From a virus (Duplodnaviria > Heunggongvirae > Uroviricota > Caudoviricetes): a stretch of 64,000 bases of DNA. The stretch spans positions 60,745-124,744 of the IMG/VR virus record IMGVR_UViG_3300005337_000004; one strand, 5' to 3'. Each line of letters opens with the position of its first letter. The first letter of the stretch is position 1. Below are positions 8,570 to 64,000 of this stretch, one piece after another. Below the pieces are notes generated by a model that saw only the letters and a list, made by a program, of their open reading frames with translations, did not search any database and was not told where the DNA came from. The translations under genes were made by a program, and so were the position numbers.

Positions 8570-9055
8570 TTGGGCATCCCTTTCGCCGCAGGTCAGCGCA
8601 TCCTGGCGTCAGATCTGAACCTGGCAACGCAGCAGGCGGCATGGACTTCGTACACGCCAGCATGGACGTCCAACGGCACGGCTCCCGCGCTCGGCAACGG
8701 CACGGTCGTCGGCTACTACGCAAAGGTCGGGCGCCTGGTCACCGCCAAGATTGAAATGAACTCAGGGTCGACGACCACCTTCGGTACCGGCTACTACTCG
8801 TGGTCGCTGCCGTTCACCGCGGCGGTAACCAGCGTCCCGACGAACCAGTTCGCACACTCGGGATCGATAGCCCTGTCGACTTCTGGCTCGGCCGTTTTCT
8901 ACACATCCACGGCTTTCATCAGTCAAGGTTCGCCGGCGGTCGTCAATGGCCTGGTTAACGGCTCTGGCAACTTCCTTGGCGCTACGAATCCGGCGACGTT
9001 CTCCGGCTCGGGGGTGCAGTTCTGCATCACCATCACCTACGAATCGACGTCCTAA
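8570..9055 (+). CDS. minor tail protein
   Basis: 161-aa Ser/Thr/Gly-rich ORF in the tail operon. Its stop overlaps the next start (TAATG). Confidence 0.4.
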   Translation: MGIPFAAGQRILASDLNLATQQAAWTSYTPAWTSNGTAPALGNGTVVGYYAKVGRLVTAKIEMNSGSTTTFGTGYYSWSLPFTAAVTSVPTNQFAHSGSIALSTSGSAVFYTSTAFISQGSPAVVNGLVNGSGNFLGATNPATFSGSGVQFCITITYESTS

Positions 9056-10242
9056 TGCATCGACGCTTGGTCCGCGCACTGGCTACTGTCCTGCTGCTGC
9101 TTGGCGTTGCCGCGCCCGGGCCGCCAAGCACCGTGCGCCTTGCGACGCCGACGACGACCTCGACGGTCTCCGGCTGGACTTCGACGTGGAACTCGGCGCT
9201 CGGCTACGCGCCGGCCGTCGGCGGCTGGAATAACCAGACGCTAAGGATGGTCATCAGGACAAGCCTTGGCGGCTCAGAGCTTCGGCTGCATCTCTCGAAC
9301 CGTTTCGCGTCGAGTCCGGCGGTCATCGGCCACGTCACCATCGGCACGCAGATGAACGGCGGCAGCACGCAGGAGACTGTCCCGCTGGATGTGACCTTCG
9401 GCGGCTCGACGGCGCTCACGCTCGGCTCCGGCGCCTCCGCAGTGTCGGACCCGATCCTGCTTGCGACCGCCCCGGCCACGCGCCTACTGGTGAGTATTTA
9501 CGTGCCGCCCGGCGCGAACATGGTCACGTCGCGGCATGACGTCGCCGAGGAGACGAACTTCAACTCGAACGGCGGCGACGCGAGCACCGCGCAGTACTAC
9601 CCGACCAGCAACACGTTCGGGTTCTACGCCCTCCTTGACGGCTTGGATGTCCCGGCCGCCGCGCCTTCAACGGTCGTGGCGATCGGCGACTCCATCACCG
9701 ACGGCCTGCACACCGACTCCGACACCGACACCCGCTGGCCGGACTACCTTGCCGCGCGCGCGGCAGCGGCCGGGCTGGCCGTAACCGACCAGGGCATCAG
9801 TGGGTCCGAGGTCACCGTCGACCAGAGCTTCGCGCTGTCCGAGCTTGACCGCTGGCAGACGGACGTCCTTAGTCAGCCGGGCGTCTGCGCAGTCATCGAC
9901 GCGGGCGGGATCAACGATCTGCGCAGTGGGGTGTCCGCGGCAACGCTAATCGCCGCGAAGCAGAGGCTCATCGCCGAGTCTCACGCGGCAGGCCTGCGGT
10001 ACTACCTAACGACCCTGACCTCGGATGCGGGCTCTACCGGCAGCAGCGGCACCGAGGCCGCACAGTGGGCCGTCTTCAATCAGTGGGTGCGTGGAGGTGC
10101 CACGGGCGCCGATGGTTACTTCGACTTCGACGCAGCGGTAGACGCCGGGGGTGCGCTGAAAGCGGTTTACGACTTCGGCGATCATCTGCATCCGAACTCG
10201 GCGGGCGCAGCGATGCTCGCCAACGTTGCGACGGGATTTTAA
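9055..10242 (+). CDS. secreted SGNH/GDSL-family hydrolase (esterase/lipase), tail-module associated
   Basis: N-terminal signal peptide (MHRRLVRALATVLLLLGVAAPG). GDS block at VVAIGDSITDG and a C-terminal DHLHPN catalytic His block. This is the last + gene of the tail operon. Confidence 0.65.
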   Translation: MHRRLVRALATVLLLLGVAAPGPPSTVRLATPTTTSTVSGWTSTWNSALGYAPAVGGWNNQTLRMVIRTSLGGSELRLHLSNRFASSPAVIGHVTIGTQMNGGSTQETVPLDVTFGGSTALTLGSGASAVSDPILLATAPATRLLVSIYVPPGANMVTSRHDVAEETNFNSNGGDASTAQYYPTSNTFGFYALLDGLDVPAAAPSTVVAIGDSITDGLHTDSDTDTRWPDYLAARAAAAGLAVTDQGISGSEVTVDQSFALSELDRWQTDVLSQPGVCAVIDAGGINDLRSGVSAATLIAAKQRLIAESHAAGLRYYLTTLTSDAGSTGSSGTEAAQWAVFNQWVRGGATGADGYFDFDAAVDAGGALKAVYDFGDHLHPNSAGAAMLANVATGF

Positions 10243-58607: not shown

Positions 58608-59600
58608 ATGTCCGAGTACGGCAACAGATGGTCCGTCACCAAGATGGTCGCCGTCGGCAGCGCGACCGTCCTGGGTCTCATCATCGGAATCCCCGTCGTC
58701 GTTGGGACCCTGTCCGCCTGGGACTCGACCACCGCCGGCCAGGTCGCCGTCGTCCGCAACGGCGGACCGTTCTCCAACAGCAACATCCGCGCCGTCATCA
58801 AGCCCGCGTCGAGCCTGACGTGGACAGGCATCTGGTCCAGTACCCACAAGTACCCGGCGACACAGTCCTCGTACACCATCACGTCGGACCCTAAGAACGG
58901 CGGGCAGCCCGGCGTGGACGTCGTGTCCGTGCCGTCCTCCGACGGCGTGCAGATGGGGATCGAAGGCACGCTGTACTACACGCTCAATACCGACCCGGCG
59001 ACAATCCGAAGCTTCGACGACAAGTTCGGCACCCGCACCTACAGCTTCAACGCGAGCACCTACAACGCCTACGCCGGCACCAAGGGCTGGGACGCGTTCA
59101 TCAACACCATGGTGCGGCCGGTTCTGAACAATGCGCTGCGCGAGCAGATCGGCGACACACGCTGCTCCGACCTGGTGTCATCGTGCGCGCTGGTGCAGAA
59201 CAACGGCACCAACCCGGCCAACGGCACGTTCCCCGTGGGCAACGTCAACATCGCCAAGGTGCAGAACGCGATCAACGCCACGCTGACGACCGACATCAAG
59301 AGCACCCTCGGCGGGGACTACCTGATTGGGATCCAGTTCGCGATCAACAAGGTCGATCTGCCGTCGAACGTGCAAACCGCCGTCGATCAGGCGCAGGCGG
59401 CGTTCGCGGCGGTGTCACAGTCGCAGGCGAAGATCGCACAGGCCAAGGCCGAGGCGGATGCGAACGCCGCCAAGCAGCAGGGGTACAACAGCTGCCCCGC
59501 TTGCGCCGAGCAGGACATCTTGAAGGCGCTGCCGCCGTCAGTGACGGTCTTTGCGCCGGGGTCCGGGACGGGGCTGCCGTTGACGACCGGAGCGAAGTAG
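58608..59600 (+). CDS. SPFH/band-7 domain membrane protein
   Basis: N-terminal transmembrane helix, an SPFH-like core (...GQVAVVRNGG...), and a C-terminal Ala/Gln coiled coil (AQAAFAAVSQSQAKIAQAKAEADANAAKQQ). Confidence 0.5.
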   Translation: MSEYGNRWSVTKMVAVGSATVLGLIIGIPVVVGTLSAWDSTTAGQVAVVRNGGPFSNSNIRAVIKPASSLTWTGIWSSTHKYPATQSSYTITSDPKNGGQPGVDVVSVPSSDGVQMGIEGTLYYTLNTDPATIRSFDDKFGTRTYSFNASTYNAYAGTKGWDAFINTMVRPVLNNALREQIGDTRCSDLVSSCALVQNNGTNPANGTFPVGNVNIAKVQNAINATLTTDIKSTLGGDYLIGIQFAINKVDLPSNVQTAVDQAQAAFAAVSQSQAKIAQAKAEADANAAKQQGYNSCPACAEQDILKALPPSVTVFAPGSGTGLPLTTGAK

Positions 59601-59602
59601 CC

Positions 59603-59902
59603 GTGCCCGAGTTCGCTGCGGGGCTGGTCGTTTTGGCGCTGATCGGGGTGGGGCTGGCGTGGCGTGCGGAGCGCGCACGCCGCAAGGCGGCATCCGAGCG
59701 CTATGCCGGCGTATGGGAAACGGCAGAGAAGGCCGAGGCTGGTGTCACGATCGTCGGGGTCCGGCGCGTGTCGCACGGCCGCGAAACCGACTTTGCCGAG
59801 GTGGCGCGGGTTCCGAACGACGATCCGGACTGGCTTCGCAAGGTGCGTGACGCCCGCGCGGAGGCTGCGGAACGTATCAGCACGTTGGCGGCGGACGTAT
59901 GA
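59603..59902 (+). CDS. small membrane protein (NfeD-like partner of SPFH protein)
   Basis: GTG start and one transmembrane helix. It lies immediately downstream of the SPFH gene, as in SPFH/NfeD pairs. Confidence 0.4.
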   Translation: MPEFAAGLVVLALIGVGLAWRAERARRKAASERYAGVWETAEKAEAGVTIVGVRRVSHGRETDFAEVARVPNDDPDWLRKVRDARAEAAERISTLAADV

Positions 59903-60053
59903 CGGTCGTGCCACCGAAGGCAAAGGCCTCCTAGGTGGCGGTAAACGAATTCGCCGAGATCACGGCAGTCGGCTACCGTAGCCCTCGTCCCGGTGCGCCG
60001 GTTCCAGCTACTTCTTTGGAAAAGTGCTCGCTGGCACCACTCTTGATCTCGGG

Positions 60054-60198
60054 GCATTGACAACAGAATCAGCACCCGCCGGGTGCGCAGATGAGTCTTA
60101 CTTCTTCCTCAAAAGAAGAGAGCCCGGGTTCGAATCCCGGCGGCACGCGAGAGCGCGCTGTGGTGTAGCGGCCTAGCACTTCCGTCAGGCTCGTCACC
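60054..60198 (+). ncRNA. Y-RNA-like unit 1 (permuted tRNA-like module)
   Basis: T-arm CCGGG-TTCGAAT-CCCGG at 60124-60140, followed by a short closing hairpin and a D-arm-like GGTGTAGCGGCCTAGCAC. The unit is bounded by TTGATCTCGGG-type repeats at 60043 and 60199. Confidence 0.4.
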
Positions 60199-60212
60199 CT
60201 GATCTCCGGCGG

Positions 60213-60333
60213 GTTCAACTTCATAAGCACCTCCCGGTGCGCTGGTCGCGGGTACTTCTTGCAGAGGATCGGTTCGAATCCGAACGCCGCTTCGGTGGCG
60301 ACGACGTGTGGCTACGTCAACCCCGCAGCCGTT
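60213..60333 (+). ncRNA. Y-RNA-like unit 2
   Basis: T-loop GGTTCGAATCC at 60271-60281, followed by a CGCCGC-UUCG-GUGGCG tetraloop-capped acceptor-like hairpin (60285-60300). Bounded by repeats at 60199 and 60334. Confidence 0.4.
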
Positions 60334-60344
60334 TTGATCTCGGG

Positions 60345-60498
60345 AGGGACAGCGCAGACTTCGGTCGCGCCCGGTGCGAGGCAAGTACGGGTACTTCTAA
60401 TTTGAGGGTCGCCGGTTCGAGTCCGGCCCGCGTCAGCGATGAGGCGGTAGCTCAGTGGGTAGAGCATCAGACTGGCGAAAGCCGTCCCCGTCGCCAAC
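60345..60498 (+). ncRNA. Y-RNA-like unit 3 (best-formed: T-arm, closed acceptor stem, canonical D-arm)
   Basis: GCCGG-TTCGAGT-CCGGC (60411-60427), then CCGCGTC-a-gcgat-GAGGCGG, a 6/7-bp acceptor-like stem. Then TA-GCTC-AGTGGGTA-GAGC (a perfect D-arm, 60448-60465) and a GGC-GAAA-GCC tetraloop hairpin. Ends at the repeat at 60499. Confidence 0.5.
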
Positions 60499-60554
60499 TT
60501 GATCTCGGGCGCGACCACTGCCGCTCCTCCCCCGTGCAGTAGGGAAGTCGAGCG

Positions 60555-62207
60555 ATGTCGAAGTTCAACAGCCCCACCGTCAAGCCGGCCGTGTTCTCCC
60601 CGGTCGCCACCGAGCGCGCCCCTTCCGGCCGTACCCACGAGGGCGGCCCCGGGTACGGGCGCGACACCAAGTCGGAACTGTTCCTTCTCGCAGTCACGAA
60701 CATGGTCGCGGAGAACACCTTCTACGAGACCGCCGGCGCCCGTGACGACCGGTTCGAGCAACTCGTTCGGCAGGTTGCCATTGAGGACCCTGACTGGATG
60801 AGCCGGTTCGTTCCGTGGCTGCGCTCCGTTGCGAACATGAGGTCCGCCTCGATCGTGGCTGCGTGCGAAGCTGTGAAGGCGCGGCTGGATGCCGACCGCC
60901 AGGTGGAGAAGCCGCCGTTCGGCGTGGCCCAGGTGCAAAACCCCTTCAACCGCGCCGTCATTGCCGCGGCCTGCCAGCGTGCTGACGAGCCGGGCGAGAT
61001 CCTGGCGTACTGGACGTCCCGCTACGGCCGGGCAATCCCGAAGCCGGTGAAGCGGGGCGTGGCCGACGCTGTGGCCCGGCTCTACAGCGGCAAGTCGCTG
61101 CTAAAGTACGACTCGGACGCCAAGGGCTTCCGATTCGGCGACGTCATCGACCTTGTCCACCCCACGCCGCACCCGGATAAGCCATGGCAGGGCGAGCTGT
61201 TCCGCTACGCCCTTGACCGCAGGCACAACCGGGCCGGACTGCCCCCGGAGTCGAACCGGACGCTGAATGCGAACCTGGTGATGCGGACCCTGCCGGTTGA
61301 GGACCGGCGCGCGGTTCTGCTGCAGCCGGACGGCCCGGAGCGGCTCGCCGATGCGGGGTTCACATGGGAGGCGCTGGCTGGTTGGCTCCAGGGCCCGATG
61401 GATGCCGCCGCGTGGGAGGCGATCATCCCGTCGATGGGCCTGATGGCGCTGGCGCGGAACCTGCGGAACTTCGACCAGGCTGGCGTGTCCGATGCTGTGG
61501 CAGCGCAGGTTGCCGCGAAGTTCGCCGACGCCGAGCAGGTCGCCCGTTCCCGGATGCTGCCGTTTCGGTGGCTCTCGGCGCACCGGGCCGCGCCGTCGCT
61601 GCGGTGGTCTTACCCGCTGGAGCAGGCGCTCGGTCACAGCCTCGCGAACATTCCGCAGCTGGCGGGCCGAACCCTGATCCTGGTGGACACCTCCACCTCG
61701 ATGGACGCCGGGTTCTCCAAGGACGGCACACTGATGCGGTGGGACGCTGCCGCACTGTTCGGGATCGCACTCGGGCACCGCTGCGCGCACGCGGATGTGG
61801 TGTCGTTCTCCAGCGCCCAGCAGTTCTACGGCGACCGCCCCGGCCCGCGGACGAAGGCGTTCCCGATGGCCAAGGGCGAGTCGGTGCTGCGTTCGCTTCA
61901 GCGGTGGAAGGGCGACGGGTACTTCCTTGGCGGCGGTACCGACACGGCAGGGGCGCTGCGGTCCACATTCGCCAGGCACGATCGGGTGGTCATCGTCACC
62001 GACGAGCAGGCCGCATATGACCCGGTGGGCGTGTCGGGGTCGATCCCAGCGAACGTGCCGATGTACACGTGGAACCTCGCTGGCTACCAGGCGGGGCACG
62101 CGCAGTCCGGGGGCGCCAACAGGCATACCTTCGGGGGGCTGACTGATCAGGCCTTCAAGATGATTCCCCTCCTGGAGGCTGGGGCGTCGCAGAGCTGGCC
62201 GTTCTGA
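60555..62207 (+). CDS. rsr: Ro60-like TROVE-domain protein with C-terminal vWA (MIDAS) domain (Rsr ortholog)
   Basis: 550 aa. N-terminal TROVE/HEAT-like region. C-terminal vWA with a DxSxS MIDAS motif (ILVDTSTSMD) and later GGGTD. Confidence 0.75.
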   Translation: MSKFNSPTVKPAVFSPVATERAPSGRTHEGGPGYGRDTKSELFLLAVTNMVAENTFYETAGARDDRFEQLVRQVAIEDPDWMSRFVPWLRSVANMRSASIVAACEAVKARLDADRQVEKPPFGVAQVQNPFNRAVIAAACQRADEPGEILAYWTSRYGRAIPKPVKRGVADAVARLYSGKSLLKYDSDAKGFRFGDVIDLVHPTPHPDKPWQGELFRYALDRRHNRAGLPPESNRTLNANLVMRTLPVEDRRAVLLQPDGPERLADAGFTWEALAGWLQGPMDAAAWEAIIPSMGLMALARNLRNFDQAGVSDAVAAQVAAKFADAEQVARSRMLPFRWLSAHRAAPSLRWSYPLEQALGHSLANIPQLAGRTLILVDTSTSMDAGFSKDGTLMRWDAAALFGIALGHRCAHADVVSFSSAQQFYGDRPGPRTKAFPMAKGESVLRSLQRWKGDGYFLGGGTDTAGALRSTFARHDRVVIVTDEQAAYDPVGVSGSIPANVPMYTWNLAGYQAGHAQSGGANRHTFGGLTDQAFKMIPLLEAGASQSWPF

Positions 62208-62446
62208 TGTCCGACAAGGTTGAGGCCCCGTTCACGCCCGATCAGGTGGCATCACTCAACGCCTACCAGGTTGCCGGCATCATGCATCCGTTCACCTGTG
62301 GTGGCGGCCAGGCGCGTGGACATAGCGGCATCCGGCTGATTGCCGCCGAGGACGGCTGGCACTGCGCCAGCGACACCTGCGACTACCGGCAGGACTGGGC
62401 CCACGCTTTCATGGCTAACTGGTCGTGGAGGAGGCTCGAACTGTGA
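62207..62446 (+). CDS. small Cys/His protein
   Basis: 79-aa ORF with a FTCGGG...WHCASDTCDY cluster. Confidence 0.4.
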   Translation: MSDKVEAPFTPDQVASLNAYQVAGIMHPFTCGGGQARGHSGIRLIAAEDGWHCASDTCDYRQDWAHAFMANWSWRRLEL

Positions 62447-63321
62447 CCGACCGCACCGCGCTCGGAGACAGAATGAAAAAGTACGAGGCGGCCACGAAGA
62501 CCGTGCTGCCGCCTCGTAACTACTCGATCATCAGGGTCGACATCCGAGCCGCCCACACGCTGCTGCGTCACGCCGCCAAGCCGTTCGACTACGACTTCAT
62601 GGCCGACATGGACGCGACCGCCGTCGCGTTGTGCGCCGAGGTCCAGGGTGCGGTGCTCGGGTACGTGCAGTCCGACGAAATCAGCGTCCTCGTCTGCGAC
62701 TTCACCGGCCCGAACAGTCAGCCGTGGTTTGGCGGCGGGGTGCAGAAGCAGGTGTCGATCGCCGCGGCTACCACCACTGCCGCATTCAACGCACGCCGAC
62801 CCGCCGAGGTGGCGACCGGCCGCATGGCCACCTTCGATGCCCGCGTCTTTACGCTCCCGAACGCGGTGGAGGTCGCGAACTACTTCATCTGGCGAGAATG
62901 CGATGCAGTTCGCAACAGCATTGCCATGGCGGCGCAAGCTAAGTTCTCCCCGCGCCAGCTCCACGGCGTCAATACCGGCCGCATGCAGGAGATGCTGTTC
63001 GCCGAGCACGGCATCAACTGGAACGACTACCCGGACGGCGCCAAGCGCGGCCGGGTCGTGGTGAAGGCCTCCGGCGAGCGGGAAGTCACGTTCACGCACA
63101 AGCGAACCAACGAGGAGCGAACCGTCACGGCGGTGCGGTCTTGGTGGGAGGCGCAGCCGGCACCGCACTTCACGACGGATCCCGATGGGTGGCTGGCGCA
63201 GATAGTTCCGGCGCTGCCAATCCTGGATCTGGGACCCGAGTTCGAGACGCACGCCGCGGAGTCGCTGGAGATCGCGAACGCGACGTTCGATGCGGTCGCG
63301 CAGTCCTGGCCGAAAGATTGA
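62443..63321 (+). CDS. Thg1-like protein (tRNA-His guanylyltransferase family, 3'-5' polymerase)
   Basis: N-terminal ...MKKYE...YSIIRVDIRAAHTLL...KPFDYDFMADMDATA...GYVQSDEISVLV matches the Thg1/TLP catalytic core (RxDGRxFH..., SDE). Confidence 0.6.
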   Translation: MTDRTALGDRMKKYEAATKTVLPPRNYSIIRVDIRAAHTLLRHAAKPFDYDFMADMDATAVALCAEVQGAVLGYVQSDEISVLVCDFTGPNSQPWFGGGVQKQVSIAAATTTAAFNARRPAEVATGRMATFDARVFTLPNAVEVANYFIWRECDAVRNSIAMAAQAKFSPRQLHGVNTGRMQEMLFAEHGINWNDYPDGAKRGRVVVKASGEREVTFTHKRTNEERTVTAVRSWWEAQPAPHFTTDPDGWLAQIVPALPILDLGPEFETHAAESLEIANATFDAVAQSWPKD

Positions 63322-63363
63322 CTTACCCTGAACCATCTGGTCGTTTCCGTCCCGAGGAGACCG

Positions 63364-64000
63364 ATGACCACGCTCGACGAACTGTTCCCGCCCGCGGACC
63401 TCAAGGCCGAGATCGAAGCCGGCTACGTCTTGCGCAAGCAGCACCCTGAGCTGCCGATCTCGATCTACACCTACGGGCGCACCTGCCAGTACGAGAACCG
63501 GTGGAACGCCATCACCACTCGGTGTCGCGGCCTGATCGCCGACGACACCGACGGCCGGATAGTGGCGCACTGCCTGCCCAAATTCTTCAATCACAGCCAG
63601 CACGGCATCGGCTACGACTTCGCGCCGCCGCTGCCAAACGAGCCGTTCGAGATCTTCGACAAGGTCGACGGCTCGCTCGGGATCGTCTTTCACTACGCCG
63701 ACGCCTGGCGCGTGGCGTCAAAAGGCTCGTTCACTTCCGAGCAGGCGAGGTGGGCGCAGGCGTGGCTGGACGCAGCCGGCCCGGATGGCGCACTCGAGCC
63801 GGGCACCACGTACCTCGCGGAGATCGTGTACCCGGAGAACCGGATCGTAGTGAACCTCGGTGACGAGCGGACGCTGGTGCTGCTGGCCGTGTACGACGCC
63901 GAAGGCCGGGAGCACCCGGTTATCAGCTACGCCGACGCCTGGGAGAAGCTCGGCGGCCGGGTTGTGCGCTCGTGGCGGGCGCTGCCGCTGGCGGAACTGG
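63364..64000 (+). CDS. ATP-dependent RNA ligase (nucleotidyltransferase motif I KxDG), 3' end beyond window
   Basis: GAGGAGA RBS. Contains FDKVDGSLGIV (a KxDGS ligase adenylylation motif), with later TYLAEIVYPEN-type motifs. The ORF is open to the window end. Confidence 0.6.
   Translation, partial: MTTLDELFPPADLKAEIEAGYVLRKQHPELPISIYTYGRTCQYENRWNAITTRCRGLIADDTDGRIVAHCLPKFFNHSQHGIGYDFAPPLPNEPFEIFDKVDGSLGIVFHYADAWRVASKGSFTSEQARWAQAWLDAAGPDGALEPGTTYLAEIVYPENRIVVNLGDERTLVLLAVYDAEGREHPVISYADAWEKLGGRVVRSWRALPLAEL

What the first reader, a model, noticed from the sequence alone, without database searches (positions are those of the whole stretch)
59903..60554. Three tandem Y-RNA-like noncoding units with circularly permuted tRNA-like domains upstream of a Ro60 gene
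The 650-nt gap before the Ro60/TROVE gene holds three units of about 150 nt. Each has a tRNA T-arm (GGTTCGAATCC / GGTTCGAGTCC) placed 5' of a D-arm-like element. Between them is a hairpin-closed acceptor-like stem with a UUCG tetraloop in unit 2 and 6/7 base pairs in unit 3. This T-arm, acceptor, D-arm order is the permuted arrangement expected for the tRNA-mimic module of bacterial Y RNAs that bind Ro60, so ordinary tRNA folding fails. Units are punctuated by a conserved TTGATCTCGGG repeat at 60043, 60199, 60334 and 60499 and share an upstream CCGGTGCG box. Three divergent copies suggest a Y RNA family used by the phage.
Basis: partly seen in the sequence, partly recalled or inferred. Interest (0 to 1): 0.8.

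Follow-up and report, generated by a model that had tools for sequence, protein, structure and literature searches.

The report
Phage Y RNA array beside Ro60

Summary
Region 59988-60514 (+) holds four tandem units, not three. Each unit is closed by pairing of a 5' CCCGGUGCG box with a 3' UUGAUCUCGGG box. Units B (60073-60214), C (60227-60349) and D (60364-60514) carry V hairpin, T arm, loop-closed acceptor-like stem and D arm, in that order. This is the permuted-tRNA layout published for YrlA Y RNAs. Unit A (59988-60054) has only the stem and V hairpin, like a short YrlB-type Y RNA. Rfam YrlA matches only unit D, and below threshold (42 vs 69 bits). A covariance model built from relatives finds B, C and A independently. 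The structure shows strong covariation in 33 viral units and in 90 units from other loci, none used to build the model (97.5% paired against 34-49% for slid controls). Arrays of two to four such units, behind a conserved promoter-like site, precede Ro60 in most of about 100 fetched actinomycete and actinophage loci. Downstream lie a Thg1-like enzyme and a T4 Rnl1-type RNA ligase. Verdict: new members of a known kind. Expression and Ro60 binding are inferred, not shown.

The parts
59950..59979 (+). Putative promoter of the array: -35-like TTCGCC (59950-59955), 18-nt spacer, -10-like TACCGT (59974-59979). It ends 9 nt before the first unit.
   Evidence: Both hexamers are kept in the closest relative L016 while the spacer differs. 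Many of the bacterial and viral loci listed have TAGAGT/TACAGT/TAACGT/TACCGT at the same distance from their first unit, often with TTGGCG about 18 nt upstream. The E. coli-consensus scan finds nothing. This part is inferred, not shown.
59988..60054 (+). Unit A: a short Y-RNA-like unit. It has the closing stem (5' box 59989-59997, 3' box 60043-60053), an inner stem CCAGC/GCUGG and a V-type hairpin with CUACUUC (60007-60027). It has no T, acceptor or D arms.
   Evidence: R1 gives 31.4 bits, E 3e-6, with a local deletion of the 74 model positions that hold the T, acceptor and D arms. The class recurs in 26 aligned short units, with 11 of 15 pairs showing compensatory changes.
60073..60214 (+). 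Unit B: a full YrlA-type unit. 5' box 60079-60087 (CCGGGUGCG); V hairpin 60101-60120; T arm 60124-60140 (CCGGG-UUCGAAU-CCCGG); closed acceptor-like stem 60141-60160 (GAGA loop, one C.A mismatch); D arm 60163-60179 (GUGU-AGCGGCCUA-GCAC); 3' box 60199-60209 (CUGAUCUCCGG).
   Evidence: R1 gives 80.2 bits, E 2.6e-13, and the unit was not in the model's training set. The MFE fold gives the same layout.
60227..60349 (+). Unit C: the most divergent full unit. 5' box 60233-60241; V hairpin 60255-60267; T arm 60269-60283 (4-bp stem); closed stem 60285-60300 (6 bp, UUCG loop); D arm 60303-60318 (GACG-UGUGGCUA-CGUC); 3' box 60334-60344. The linker is AC instead of UA, and the D loop starts with U instead of A.
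   Evidence: R1 gives 55.4 bits, E 1.5e-8, and the unit was not in the training set. An ortholog in L016 is about 93% identical over alignment columns about 281-400 (unit C plus its 5' spacer), with wobble/Watson-Crick switches in the closed stem.
60364..60514 (+). Unit D: the most tRNA-like unit. 5' box 60370-60378; V hairpin 60394-60407; T arm 60411-60427 (GCCGG-UUCGAGU-CCGGC); closed acceptor-like stem 60428-60447 (7 bp with a G.G mismatch, plus one further pair, GCGA loop); UA linker; D arm 60450-60465 (GCUC-AGUGGGUA-GAGC); an extra GAAA hairpin 60470-60486; 3' box 60499-60509.
   Evidence: Rfam YrlA matches 60387-60494 at 42 bits, E 1e-7. R1 gives 111.1 bits, but this unit was in the training set. 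The MFE fold has z -2.76.
60555..62207 (+). Ro60/TROVE-vWA protein gene, the presumed protein partner of the four RNAs.
   Evidence: It is 43-62% identical to the Ro60 of 18 viral contigs and 56-68% identical to that of 80 actinomycete genome loci (best segment), nearly all of which carry the same RNA units, almost always upstream.
62425..63321 (+). Thg1-like 3'-5' nucleotidyltransferase gene (context; tRNA 5'-end repair family).
   Evidence: Pfam Thg1 2.4e-21 and Thg1C 1.1e-5; PHROG 4717, 6.3e-70.
63322..63999 (+). N-terminal part of a T4 Rnl1-type RNA ligase gene (context). It runs off the end of the window.
   Evidence: Pfam RNA_lig_T4_1 1.2e-12; TIGR02308 7.8e-11, below its cut-off; PHROG 562, 1.8e-37.

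Best explanation
The gap encodes an array of four Y RNAs of the bacterial YrlA/YrlB type.

Shown here: homology, structure, covariation, synteny with Ro60, and the gene context. Everything below is inferred.

Transcription and processing (inferred):
- The array is probably transcribed from a promoter at about 59950-59979, either as one precursor that continues into the Ro60 gene or that ends just before it.
- The precursor is probably cut in the spacers into one RNA of about 65 nt (A) and three of about 120-150 nt (B, C, D).

Structure of each RNA (shown by folding and covariation):
- Each RNA is closed by pairing of its ends.
- The conserved internal loop or helix formed by 5' GGUGCG and 3' UUGAUC sits where Ro60 binds other Y RNAs.
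- In B, C and D the distal end folds as a tRNA elbow: a T loop UUCGA(A/G)U and a D loop with GG. The acceptor stem is sealed by a loop, and the Y stem takes the place of the anticodon arm.

Function (inferred by analogy):
- By analogy with Deinococcus and Salmonella RYPER and with Thermus phage phiLo, the RNAs would bind the phage Ro60 and tether it to a partner that recognises RNA or tRNA shape. Host PNPase is the documented case. They may also gate access to the Ro60 cavity.
- The three distinct D-arm types suggest different partners or specificities.
- The adjacent Thg1-like enzyme and Rnl1-type ligase suggest the module serves RNA or tRNA surveillance and repair during infection.
For: 1. 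Rfam YrlA matches unit D over the whole model.
2. Model R1, built from 12 Ro60-proximal units, finds B (80 bits) and C (55 bits), which were not in its training set. With filters off it finds A (31 bits) and nothing else convincing in the 64-kb window.
3. MFE folds of B, C and D each give the same stem plus four-hairpin layout independently.
4. Covariation in 33 viral units: 94.9% of cells paired against 37-49% when partners are slid; 30 of 34 pairs have changes on both sides; 0 of 500 shuffles reach the observed value.
5. Covariation in 90 units from other loci, none used for model building: 97.5% against 34-49%; 27 of 34 pairs; 0 of 500 shuffles.
6. All convincing hits are on the Ro60 strand and nearly all lie within about 1.3 kb upstream of it, in 18 viral contigs, 80 actinomycete loci and three cultured phages. 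The exception is MiniLon, where the unit lies downstream.
7. Published precedent: YrlA and YrlB lie upstream of rsr in M. smegmatis, are processed from one precursor and are bound by Rsr. 355 YrlA were reported in 254 bacteria and 22 phages (PMC4201824). Two Yrl RNAs upstream of the phage phiLo Ro60 bind it and host PNPase (PMC12135203).
8. A promoter-like site sits at a fixed distance before the first unit in many loci.
Against: - There is no expression, processing or binding data for this phage.
- Rfam scores unit D below the curated threshold and misses B and C.
- The published 5' motif GNCGAAN0-1G is not present in exact form. The aligned position reads CCGGUGCG(C/A).
- Unit C lacks several tRNA tertiary signatures: the UA linker, A14, the Levitt pair, and it has only a 4-bp T stem.
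- Single-sequence folding z-scores are modest, -1.3 to -2.8.
- The Thg1/ligase neighbourhood is not conserved in relatives. Only L006 shares the ligase, so the repair link is weak.
Confidence: 0.85

Rival explanations
1. The structured units act mainly in cis, as a long 5' leader of the Ro60 mRNA. For example, Ro60 could bind its own leader to autoregulate translation or termination, and no stable free small RNAs would be made.
For: The units lie directly upstream of Ro60 on the same strand, with only one promoter-like site in front of the array. In several relatives a strong hairpin whose 3' arm holds the Shine-Dalgarno sequence sits just before the start codon (L016 z -4.56; L010 and L017 sequences).
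Against: In M. smegmatis the equivalent upstream RNAs are processed from the precursor and immunoprecipitate with Rsr as discrete species (PMC4201824). In mycobacteriophage MiniLon the unit lies downstream of the Ro gene, and in Salmonella the Y RNAs are 3' of rsr, so position relative to the start codon is not conserved. The hairpin before the window's own start codon is not significant (z -0.28). This reading does not exclude the main one.
Confidence: 0.12
2. The units are a decayed array of ordinary tRNA genes, or tRNA dimers scored as false positives, or attachment-site relics, with no function of their own.
For: The T and D arms look like tRNA. Rfam tRNA gives a weak hit at 60441-60528 (16 bits, E 3.3). 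ARAGORN calls tRNAs on the 5' halves of a few homologous units (VanLee, L003). A dimeric-tRNA origin has been proposed for YrlA (bioRxiv 10.1101/312249).
Against: ARAGORN and Rfam at gathering threshold find no tRNA in the region. The permuted order and the closing stem are conserved with compensatory changes in more than 120 units, which decaying pseudogenes would not keep. The alternative pairing that would turn the 5' half into a cloverleaf is at shuffle level (45.8% paired, 199 of 500 shuffles reach it). All convincing hits are on the Ro60 strand next to a Ro60 gene.
Confidence: 0.02
3. The tRNA-like modules act chiefly as decoys or competitive inhibitors of host tRNA-cleaving or tRNA-binding defence enzymes, largely independently of Ro60.
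For: Hughes et al. 2020 (PMC7790460) raise competitive inhibition of an anticodon nuclease as one possible YrlA role. There are three different D-arm types in one array. tRNA repair enzymes are adjacent.
Against: The sealed acceptor and the missing anticodon loop remove the usual nuclease targets. The V hairpins of the window's units do not have 7-nt anticodon-like loops. The strict linkage to Ro60 and the conserved closing-stem boxes argue that Ro60 binding is central.
Confidence: 0.08

Closest known systems
YrlA (Y RNA-like A; Rfam RF02553; Salmonella Typhimurium, M. smegmatis; Chen et al. 2014; crystal structure 6CU1)
   Same: It has a closing stem formed by the two ends and a V hairpin that begins with YUAY. 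The T arm, loop-closed acceptor-like stem and D arm come in that order. It is encoded next to Ro60 on the same strand. The Rfam model aligns end to end with unit D.
   Different: Scores fall below the Rfam gathering threshold, and B and C are not detected at all. The 5' motif reads CCGGUGCG instead of GNCGAA. Both strands of the presumed Ro60 site are conserved here (3' UUGAUCUCGGG), whereas the paper says only the 5' strand is recognisable in Salmonella and M. smegmatis. There is an 8-22-nt linker between the D arm and the stem, and unit D has an extra GAAA hairpin.
M. smegmatis rsr locus (YrlA plus YrlB upstream of rsr, one precursor; PMC4201824)
   Same: Several Y RNAs lie in tandem directly upstream of Ro60 in an actinobacterial setting. 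Acceptor-like stems are about 7 bp (units B and D), the length that made M. smegmatis YrlA an RNase P and CCA-adding substrate.
   Different: There are four units instead of two. The short unit here has no T arm, whereas M. smegmatis YrlB has a possible one. In B and D the acceptor-like helix continues by one pair beyond position 7 and is capped by GNRA tetraloops, so RNase P cleavage is uncertain.
Thermus phage phiLo Yrl1/Yrl2 with phage Ro60 (PMC12135203; PDB 9KOP, 9L5Y)
   Same: A phage-encoded Ro60 has Y-RNA-like genes immediately upstream. The phiLo protein is the closest solved structure to this Ro60. The documented function is binding to Ro60 and host PNPase.
   Different: Two units in phiLo against four here. 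The phiLo RNAs are described as stem-bulge-stem with a CGAA motif, and the passages retrieved do not describe a tRNA-like domain. The proteins match only distantly (phmmer E 5.5e-19, best stretch about residues 23-219).
Deinococcus Yrn1/Yrn2 and metazoan Y RNAs (Rfam Y_RNA)
   Same: They have the same two-module logic: a Ro60-binding stem plus an effector-binding distal module. The 3' strand UUGAUC resembles the metazoan UUGAC(U/C).
   Different: There is no Rfam Y_RNA match even at E up to 10. The distal module is a permuted tRNA mimic with the opposite T/D orientation to Yrn1 (per PMC4201824).
Tandem (dimeric) tRNA genes and permuted tRNAs
   Same: A T arm of tRNA type is followed by a D arm of tRNA type. 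Some relatives keep a 7-nt anticodon-like loop in the V hairpin and are even called as tRNAs by ARAGORN. This fits the proposed dimeric-tRNA origin.
   Different: There is no free acceptor end, no anticodon arm in the functional fold, and no tRNA call in the window. The cloverleaf alternative is not supported by covariation.

Membership tests
YrlA-type Y RNA (Chen et al. 2014; Rfam RF02553) | Encoded within about 4 kb of a Ro60/TROVE gene, on the same strand | tested here: met
   The units at 59988-60514 (+) end 41 nt before the Ro60 gene at 60555-62207 (+).
YrlA-type Y RNA (Chen et al. 2014; Rfam RF02553) | The 5' and 3' ends pair into a long closing stem (the Ro60-binding module) | tested here: met
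   Present in the MFE folds. The 10-pair outer helix plus two inner helices show compensatory changes: 8 of 10 outer pairs in both data sets.
YrlA-type Y RNA (Chen et al. 2014; Rfam RF02553) | GNCGAAN0-1G motif near the 5' end | tested here: inconclusive
   The exact motif is absent from the 5' strands. They read CCCGGUGCGC (A, C), CCGGGUGCGC (B) and CCCGGUGCGAGG (D). Homologous columns read CCGAAGUG in L004 and L017 and GGUGCGAAGG in many Streptomyces loci, so this looks like a lineage variant. A GGCGAAAG exists in unit D, but in the 3' extra hairpin, not at the family's position.
YrlA-type Y RNA (Chen et al. 2014; Rfam RF02553) | T arm with a tRNA-type T loop, placed 5' of the D arm | tested here: met
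   The T loops read UUCGAAU (B, C) and UUCGAGU (D). The stem is 5 bp in B and D and 4 bp in C. The T stem covaries.
YrlA-type Y RNA (Chen et al. 2014; Rfam RF02553) | Loop-closed acceptor-like stem between the T and D arms | tested here: met
   B has 8 positions with one mismatch and a GAGA loop. C has 6 bp and a UUCG loop. D has 7 positions with one G.G mismatch, one further pair and a GCGA loop. All 8 model pairs show changes on both sides.
YrlA-type Y RNA (Chen et al. 2014; Rfam RF02553) | D arm with GG in the loop | tested here: met
   D: GCUC-AGUGGGUA-GAGC. B: GUGU-AGCGGCCUA-GCAC. C: GACG-UGUGGCUA-CGUC.
YrlA-type Y RNA (Chen et al. 2014; Rfam RF02553) | V stem-loop upstream of the T arm, beginning with a conserved YUAY | tested here: met
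   UACUUCU is found in all four units (60009, 60099, 60253, 60392). It is preceded by C (A), U (B) and G (C, D), so the first Y is strictly met only in A and B. The hairpins fold individually.
YrlA-type Y RNA (Chen et al. 2014; Rfam RF02553) | tRNA tertiary signatures: UA linker between acceptor and D arm, A14, Levitt pair 15:48 | tested here: inconclusive
   D has all of them (UA, A14, G15:C48). B has UG, A14 and G15:C48. C has AC, U14 and no Levitt pair (read). The tertiary fold itself cannot be tested here.
YrlA-type Y RNA (Chen et al. 2014; Rfam RF02553) | Reaches the Rfam RF02553 gathering score (69 bits) | tested here: not met
   Unit D scores 42 bits. B and C give no match even at E up to 10. 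None of the 37 related viral and bacterial loci scanned reaches it either, so the Rfam threshold excludes this whole actinobacterial/phage lineage. Chen et al. used their own models, which included actinobacterial and mycobacteriophage sequences.
YrlA-type Y RNA (Chen et al. 2014; Rfam RF02553) | Bound by Ro60/Rsr; carries pseudouridine 55 and dihydrouridine | not testable with these tools
   This needs RIP or EMSA and modification mapping.
Canonical tRNA gene | Cloverleaf with a free acceptor end and an anticodon arm, detected by tRNA finders | tested here: not met
   ARAGORN finds none in the region. Rfam tRNA scores 16.1 bits against a gathering score of 29. The cloverleaf-type pairing of the 5' half is at shuffle level.
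Metazoan/Deinococcus-type Y RNA (Rfam Y_RNA) | Match to the Y_RNA covariance model | tested here: not met
   There is no Y_RNA match in the region even at E up to 10.

The most novel reading that the evidence does not exclude
The four RNAs are not redundant. Each tRNA-elbow mimic, with its own D-arm type, would dock a different tRNA-handling enzyme onto the phage Ro60 ring. Candidates include the neighbouring Thg1-like 3'-5' polymerase and the Rnl1-type ligase. Together they would form a phage ribonucleoprotein that captures and repairs, or disposes of, tRNAs damaged by host anticodon-nuclease defences. This would give Ro60/Y RNPs a concrete role in phage counter-defence.
Probability: 0.12. 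Interest if true: 0.75.

Novelty: new member of a known kind. Interest (0 to 1): 0.35.

Why it matters
This does not change what is known about Y RNAs, but it is useful in four ways.
1. Standard annotation misses this whole lineage. Rfam's threshold excludes it in all 37 related loci scanned. GenBank phage records leave the gaps empty or mislabel part of a unit as a tRNA, as with tRNA-Arg(tct) in Gordonia phage VanLee.
2. Multi-unit arrays (short unit plus full units) behind a conserved promoter-like site are common in front of Ro60 in the actinomycete and actinophage loci examined, so they are a regular feature of this lineage.
3. The model and alignments made here could seed a better family definition.
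4. The Ro60 / Thg1-like / Rnl1-type ligase neighbourhood in a small cultivable-type phage offers a tractable system for asking what bacterial and phage Ro60-Y RNA particles do. That question is still open.

Tried and rejected
- Rfam at gathering threshold on the window found nothing, and only unit D appeared at relaxed threshold. I therefore built my own model rather than conclude the family was absent.
- A MAFFT alignment of the three window units misaligned the T arms and was not used for modelling.
- A search of cultured phages with the DNA of the region gave only 61-nt matches to cluster-L mycobacteriophages. These turned out to be a Y-RNA unit downstream of their Ro gene.
- The idea that the 5' half of each unit is itself a tRNA (prompted by mascRNA/tRNA weak hits and ARAGORN calls in relatives) was tested and rejected by covariation.
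- The idea that the V hairpin is an anticodon-arm mimic holds for several relatives (7-nt loops CUGUUAA, CUGCUAA) but not for the window's own units.
- A regulatory hairpin before the Ro60 start codon is strong in relatives but not significant in the window.
- The E. coli-type promoter scan found nothing. The promoter proposal rests on cross-locus conservation only.
- The supplementary tables of Chen et al. 2014 and two Wolin reviews could not be read. I could not check whether arrays of this size were already tabulated.
- Conservation of the Thg1/ligase neighbourhood was tested and mostly not found.
Full report
**1. What is in the sequence**

The stretch 59903-60554 lies between an ORF that ends at 59902 and a 550-aa ORF at 60555-62207. 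Three results identify that ORF as a Ro60/TROVE protein with a vWA domain:
- Pfam TROVE, 1.4e-13.
- PHROG 850, 9e-51.
- Its closest solved structure is the Ro60 of Thermus phage phiLo, 9KOP/9L5Y, E 5.5e-19.

The window as a whole is a 66.6% G+C phage genome segment. It carries a tape measure protein, a GH25 lysin, a GDSL lipase, RecT, DnaB, a C5 methylase and ParB-like genes. Its nearest cultured relatives match only at the protein level: the Ro60 proteins of Streptomyces phage BRock and Gordonia phage VanLee are 47-48% identical. No ORF with the coding G+C signature lies between 59600 and 60543.

**2. Check of the observation**

| Motif | Positions | Found vs expected |
|---|---|---|
| GGTTCGARTCC | 60127, 60271, 60414 (nowhere else in 64 kb) | 3 vs 0.09; 0/100 shuffles |
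| TTGATCTCGGG, exact | 60043, 60334, 60499 | 6 vs 0.87 with up to 1 mismatch; 0/100 shuffles |
| CTGATCTCCGG (two-mismatch variant) | 60199 | - |
| CCGGTGCG | exact at 59990, 60234, 60371; CGGGTGCG at 60080 | 10 vs 10.75 in the whole window, so not enriched |

The key correction concerns the two boxes. The 5' box and the 3' box pair with each other and close each unit. They do not punctuate the units. The box pair at 59989/60043 therefore defines a fourth, short unit.

**3. Anatomy**

MFE folds of units B (60075-60215), C (60229-60349) and D (60367-60514) each give the same layout independently (z-scores -2.4, -1.8, -2.8):
- a long closing stem;
- an inner stem;
- a junction with four hairpins, in this order: V hairpin (starting UACUUC), T arm, a loop-closed stem, and a D-type arm.

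Unit D has one extra GAAA-capped hairpin after the D arm. Unit A (59988-60054) has the closing stem, an inner stem and the UACUUC hairpin only. Exact coordinates of all arms are and in the parts list.

**4. Match to known families**

- Rfam at curated thresholds reports nothing in the window.
- At relaxed threshold, YrlA (RF02553) aligns end to end with unit D: 60387-60494, 42 bits, E 1e-7, against a gathering score of 69.
- The Rfam consensus structure is outer stem, inner stem, T arm, closed stem, D arm. This is the layout found here.
- ARAGORN finds no tRNA in the region. Rfam tRNA scores only 16 bits.

**5. Relatives and covariation**

Eighteen IMG/VR viral contigs encode a Ro60 that is 43-62% identical. 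All of them carry the same kind of units directly upstream. I aligned twelve Ro60-proximal units. RNAalifold returned the YrlA-type structure, with 23 of 34 pairs showing compensatory changes. Covariance model R1 was built from this alignment.

R1 scores in the window:

| Unit | Bits | E-value | In training set? |
|---|---|---|---|
| D | 111 | 3e-19 | yes |
| B | 80.2 | 2.6e-13 | no |
| C | 55.4 | 1.5e-8 | no |
| A (filters off) | 31.4 | 3e-6 | no |

The match to unit A deletes the 74 model positions that hold the T, acceptor and D arms. The remaining hits in the 64-kb window are weak (E at or above 0.38).

Covariation was counted on two data sets.

| Measure | 33 viral units | 90 other units, none used in model building |
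|---|---|---|
| Cells forming a standard pair | 94.9% | 97.5% |
| Same, 3' partners slid by 1-3 columns | 37-49% | 34-49% |
| Pairs with changes on both sides | 30 of 34 | 27 of 34 |
| Covariation score (slid control) | 0.72 (0.07-0.17) | 0.54 (at most 0.12) |
| Shuffles reaching the observed value | 0 of 500 | 0 of 500 |

The 90 units come from actinomycete genomes and cultured phages. Both alignments were fitted to the model, which favours the structure. The slid controls and the size of the effect make the conclusion safe. A phylogeny-aware test was not available.

The short-unit class is also conserved. In 26 aligned short units, 11 of 15 pairs show compensatory changes.

**6. How common the arrangement is**

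- Of 305 Ro60 relatives found in genome contigs, the 80 best were fetched. They are mostly Streptomyces, with Actinomadura, Nonomuraea, Amycolatopsis, Nocardia and others, at 56-68% identity (best segment). Nearly all of them have R1 hits, almost always just upstream of Ro60: 145 hits in all, all on the Ro60 strand.
- A rough motif count gives mostly 2, 3 or 4 units per locus. One viral contig (L017) has about nine.
- Viral contig L016 and Actinomadura locus L065 have the same four-unit order as the window.
- Cultured phages carry the units too. VanLee has four R1 hits upstream of its Ro gene, BRock has four, and mycobacteriophage MiniLon has one downstream. None is annotated as a Y RNA.
- None of the 37 related loci scanned reaches the Rfam YrlA threshold.

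**7. Literature**

- Chen et al. 2014 (PMC4201824) described YrlA RNAs next to Ro60 in 254 bacteria and 22 phages, 355 RNAs in all, so several occur in some genomes. They have a 5' GNCGAAN0-1G motif, a V loop beginning YUAY, and T, closed acceptor (AS) and D arms.
- In M. smegmatis, YrlA and a shorter YrlB both lie upstream of rsr, are processed from one precursor and are bound by Rsr. YrlA, which has a 7-bp AS, is cut by RNase P and receives CCA.
- Wang et al. 2018 (bioRxiv 10.1101/312249) solved the tRNA-like domain. They describe most YrlAs as circularly permuted tRNAs with closed acceptor stems and discuss an origin from dimeric tRNAs.
- A 2025 paper (PMC12135203) showed that two Y-RNA-like genes upstream of the phage phiLo Ro60 bind that protein and host PNPase.

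**8. Differences from the described family**

1. The exact GNCGAA motif is missing. The aligned position reads CCGGUGCG here, CCGAAGUG in L004 and L017, and GGUGCGAAGG in many Streptomyces loci.
2. Both strands of the presumed Ro60 site are conserved in this lineage. The paper reports only the 5' strand as recognisable in Salmonella and M. smegmatis.
3. An 8-22-nt linker separates the D arm from the stem.
4. Three D-arm types coexist in one array. Unit C departs from tRNA tertiary rules: an AC linker, U14, no Levitt pair and a 4-bp T stem.

**9. Rival readings**

- A decayed tRNA array is excluded by the conserved permuted order, the covariation and the linkage to Ro60. The specific alternative, in which the 5' half of a unit forms a cloverleaf, was tested and sits at shuffle level. 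That alternative was suggested by ARAGORN calls in VanLee and L003.
- A purely cis-acting leader of the Ro60 mRNA cannot be excluded without expression data. It does not fit the variable position of the units relative to Ro60 in other organisms. It is also compatible with the main reading.
- A Ro60-independent decoy role is possible but unsupported.

**10. Mechanism**

Shown here: homology, structure, covariation, synteny and gene context. Everything else is inferred.

- Transcription probably starts just after a -10-like TACCGT (59974-59979), with a -35-like TTCGCC 18 nt upstream. Both hexamers are kept in L016 while the spacer differs. Equivalent hexamers sit at the same distance before the first unit in many of the bacterial loci.
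- The precursor would be cut in the spacers.
- Each RNA would bind Ro60 through its closing stem. Through its tRNA-like elbow it would tether Ro60 to a partner. Host PNPase is the documented one elsewhere.
- Directly downstream lie a 79-aa ORF, a Thg1-like enzyme and a T4 Rnl1-type RNA ligase. This suggests a role in RNA or tRNA surveillance and repair.
- Among the 18 viral relatives, only L006 shares the ligase within 3 kb, so this link is a lead and not a finding.

**11. Verdict**

It is a new member of a known kind. Interest is moderate to low for a specialist. Its practical value is for annotation and as a possible experimental system.

Noticed in passing
window 62207-63999: Right after Ro60 come a 79-aa ORF of unknown family, a Thg1-like 3'-5' nucleotidyltransferase (62425-63321) and the start of a T4 Rnl1-type RNA ligase (63322 to beyond 63999). 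Together they look like a compact RNA/tRNA repair cassette. Only one of 18 viral relatives (L006) shares the ligase within 3 kb.
   Followed up: partly
L100 2700-2842 (Gordonia phage VanLee NC_073474, 65454-65525); L003 2651-2722 and 2808-2880: The GenBank feature tRNA-Arg(tct) of VanLee, and ARAGORN calls for tRNA-Gln and tRNA-Asn in L003, lie inside Y-RNA units (R1 103.9, 91.4 and 121.2 bits). They cover the 5' stem strand, V hairpin, T arm and one strand of the closed stem. They are probably mis-annotations, since the cloverleaf pairing is not supported by covariation.
   Followed up: yes
L001-L018, V hairpins (e.g. L010 2477-2624, L016 2524-2658, L002 2825-2961): In several relatives the V hairpin has a 7-nt loop that looks like an anticodon loop (CUGUUAA, CUGCUAA, CCUUUAA, with U at position 2 and A at 6-7). 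This fits the proposed dimeric-tRNA origin. The window's own units do not show it.
   Followed up: partly
window about 60215-60340 vs L016 about 2660-2780: Unit C plus its 5' spacer is about 93% identical between the window and viral contig L016, with wobble/Watson-Crick switches in the closed stem. Units A, B and D are much more diverged, and Ro60 is only 60% identical at the protein level. This points to either strong constraint on the least tRNA-like unit or a recent exchange.
   Followed up: partly
window 60216-60223 (CAACTTCA), 60355-60364 (CAGACTTCGG), 60060-60071 (ACAACAGAATCA); the same in spacers of L001, L003-L005, L007, L008, L010, L015-L018 and many Streptomyces loci: A conserved single-stranded motif, ACAACUUCA(U/C)(A/G), sits in the spacers just 5' of a unit's closing stem. 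It could be a processing site. No test was made.
   Followed up: no
L016 2962-2996; L010 about 2955-2992; L017 2951-2993; window 60515-60554: Most relatives have a strong, often terminator-like hairpin directly before the Ro60 start codon. Its 3' arm holds the Shine-Dalgarno sequence (L016 z -4.56). This could mean termination after the RNA array or translational control. The window's own version is not significant (z -0.28).
   Followed up: partly
L017 1702-2930: One viral contig carries about nine tandem units upstream of Ro60, a mix of short and full ones. Their 5' box reads (U/C)CGAAGUG, close to the metazoan GGUCCGAAG and the published CGAA motif.
   Followed up: partly
L099 2459-2588 (Mycobacterium phage MiniLon MT889383): In cluster-L mycobacteriophages a single unit (R1 62.5 bits) lies downstream of the Ro-like gene. 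It is partly overlapped by an annotated 47-aa 'hypothetical protein' (gene 58), which may be a spurious call.
   Followed up: partly
window 9538-9614 (-): ARAGORN calls a tRNA-Ala(cgc) on the minus strand inside the plus-strand GDSL-lipase ORF (8959-10242). Rfam tRNA does not confirm it at the gathering threshold. It is probably a false positive.
   Followed up: partly
window 60470-60486: Unit D alone has an extra hairpin, GACUGGCGAAAGCCGUC, between the D arm and the stem. Its GGCGAAAG matches the published GNCGAANG motif by sequence but sits at the wrong place. It is most likely just a GNRA-capped insertion.
   Followed up: no
window 58608-59902: Upstream of the array lie an SPFH/Band-7 protein gene (58608-59600) and a likely 100-aa ORF with one hydrophobic helix (about 59597-59902). 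Their relation to the RNA module is unknown.
   Followed up: no
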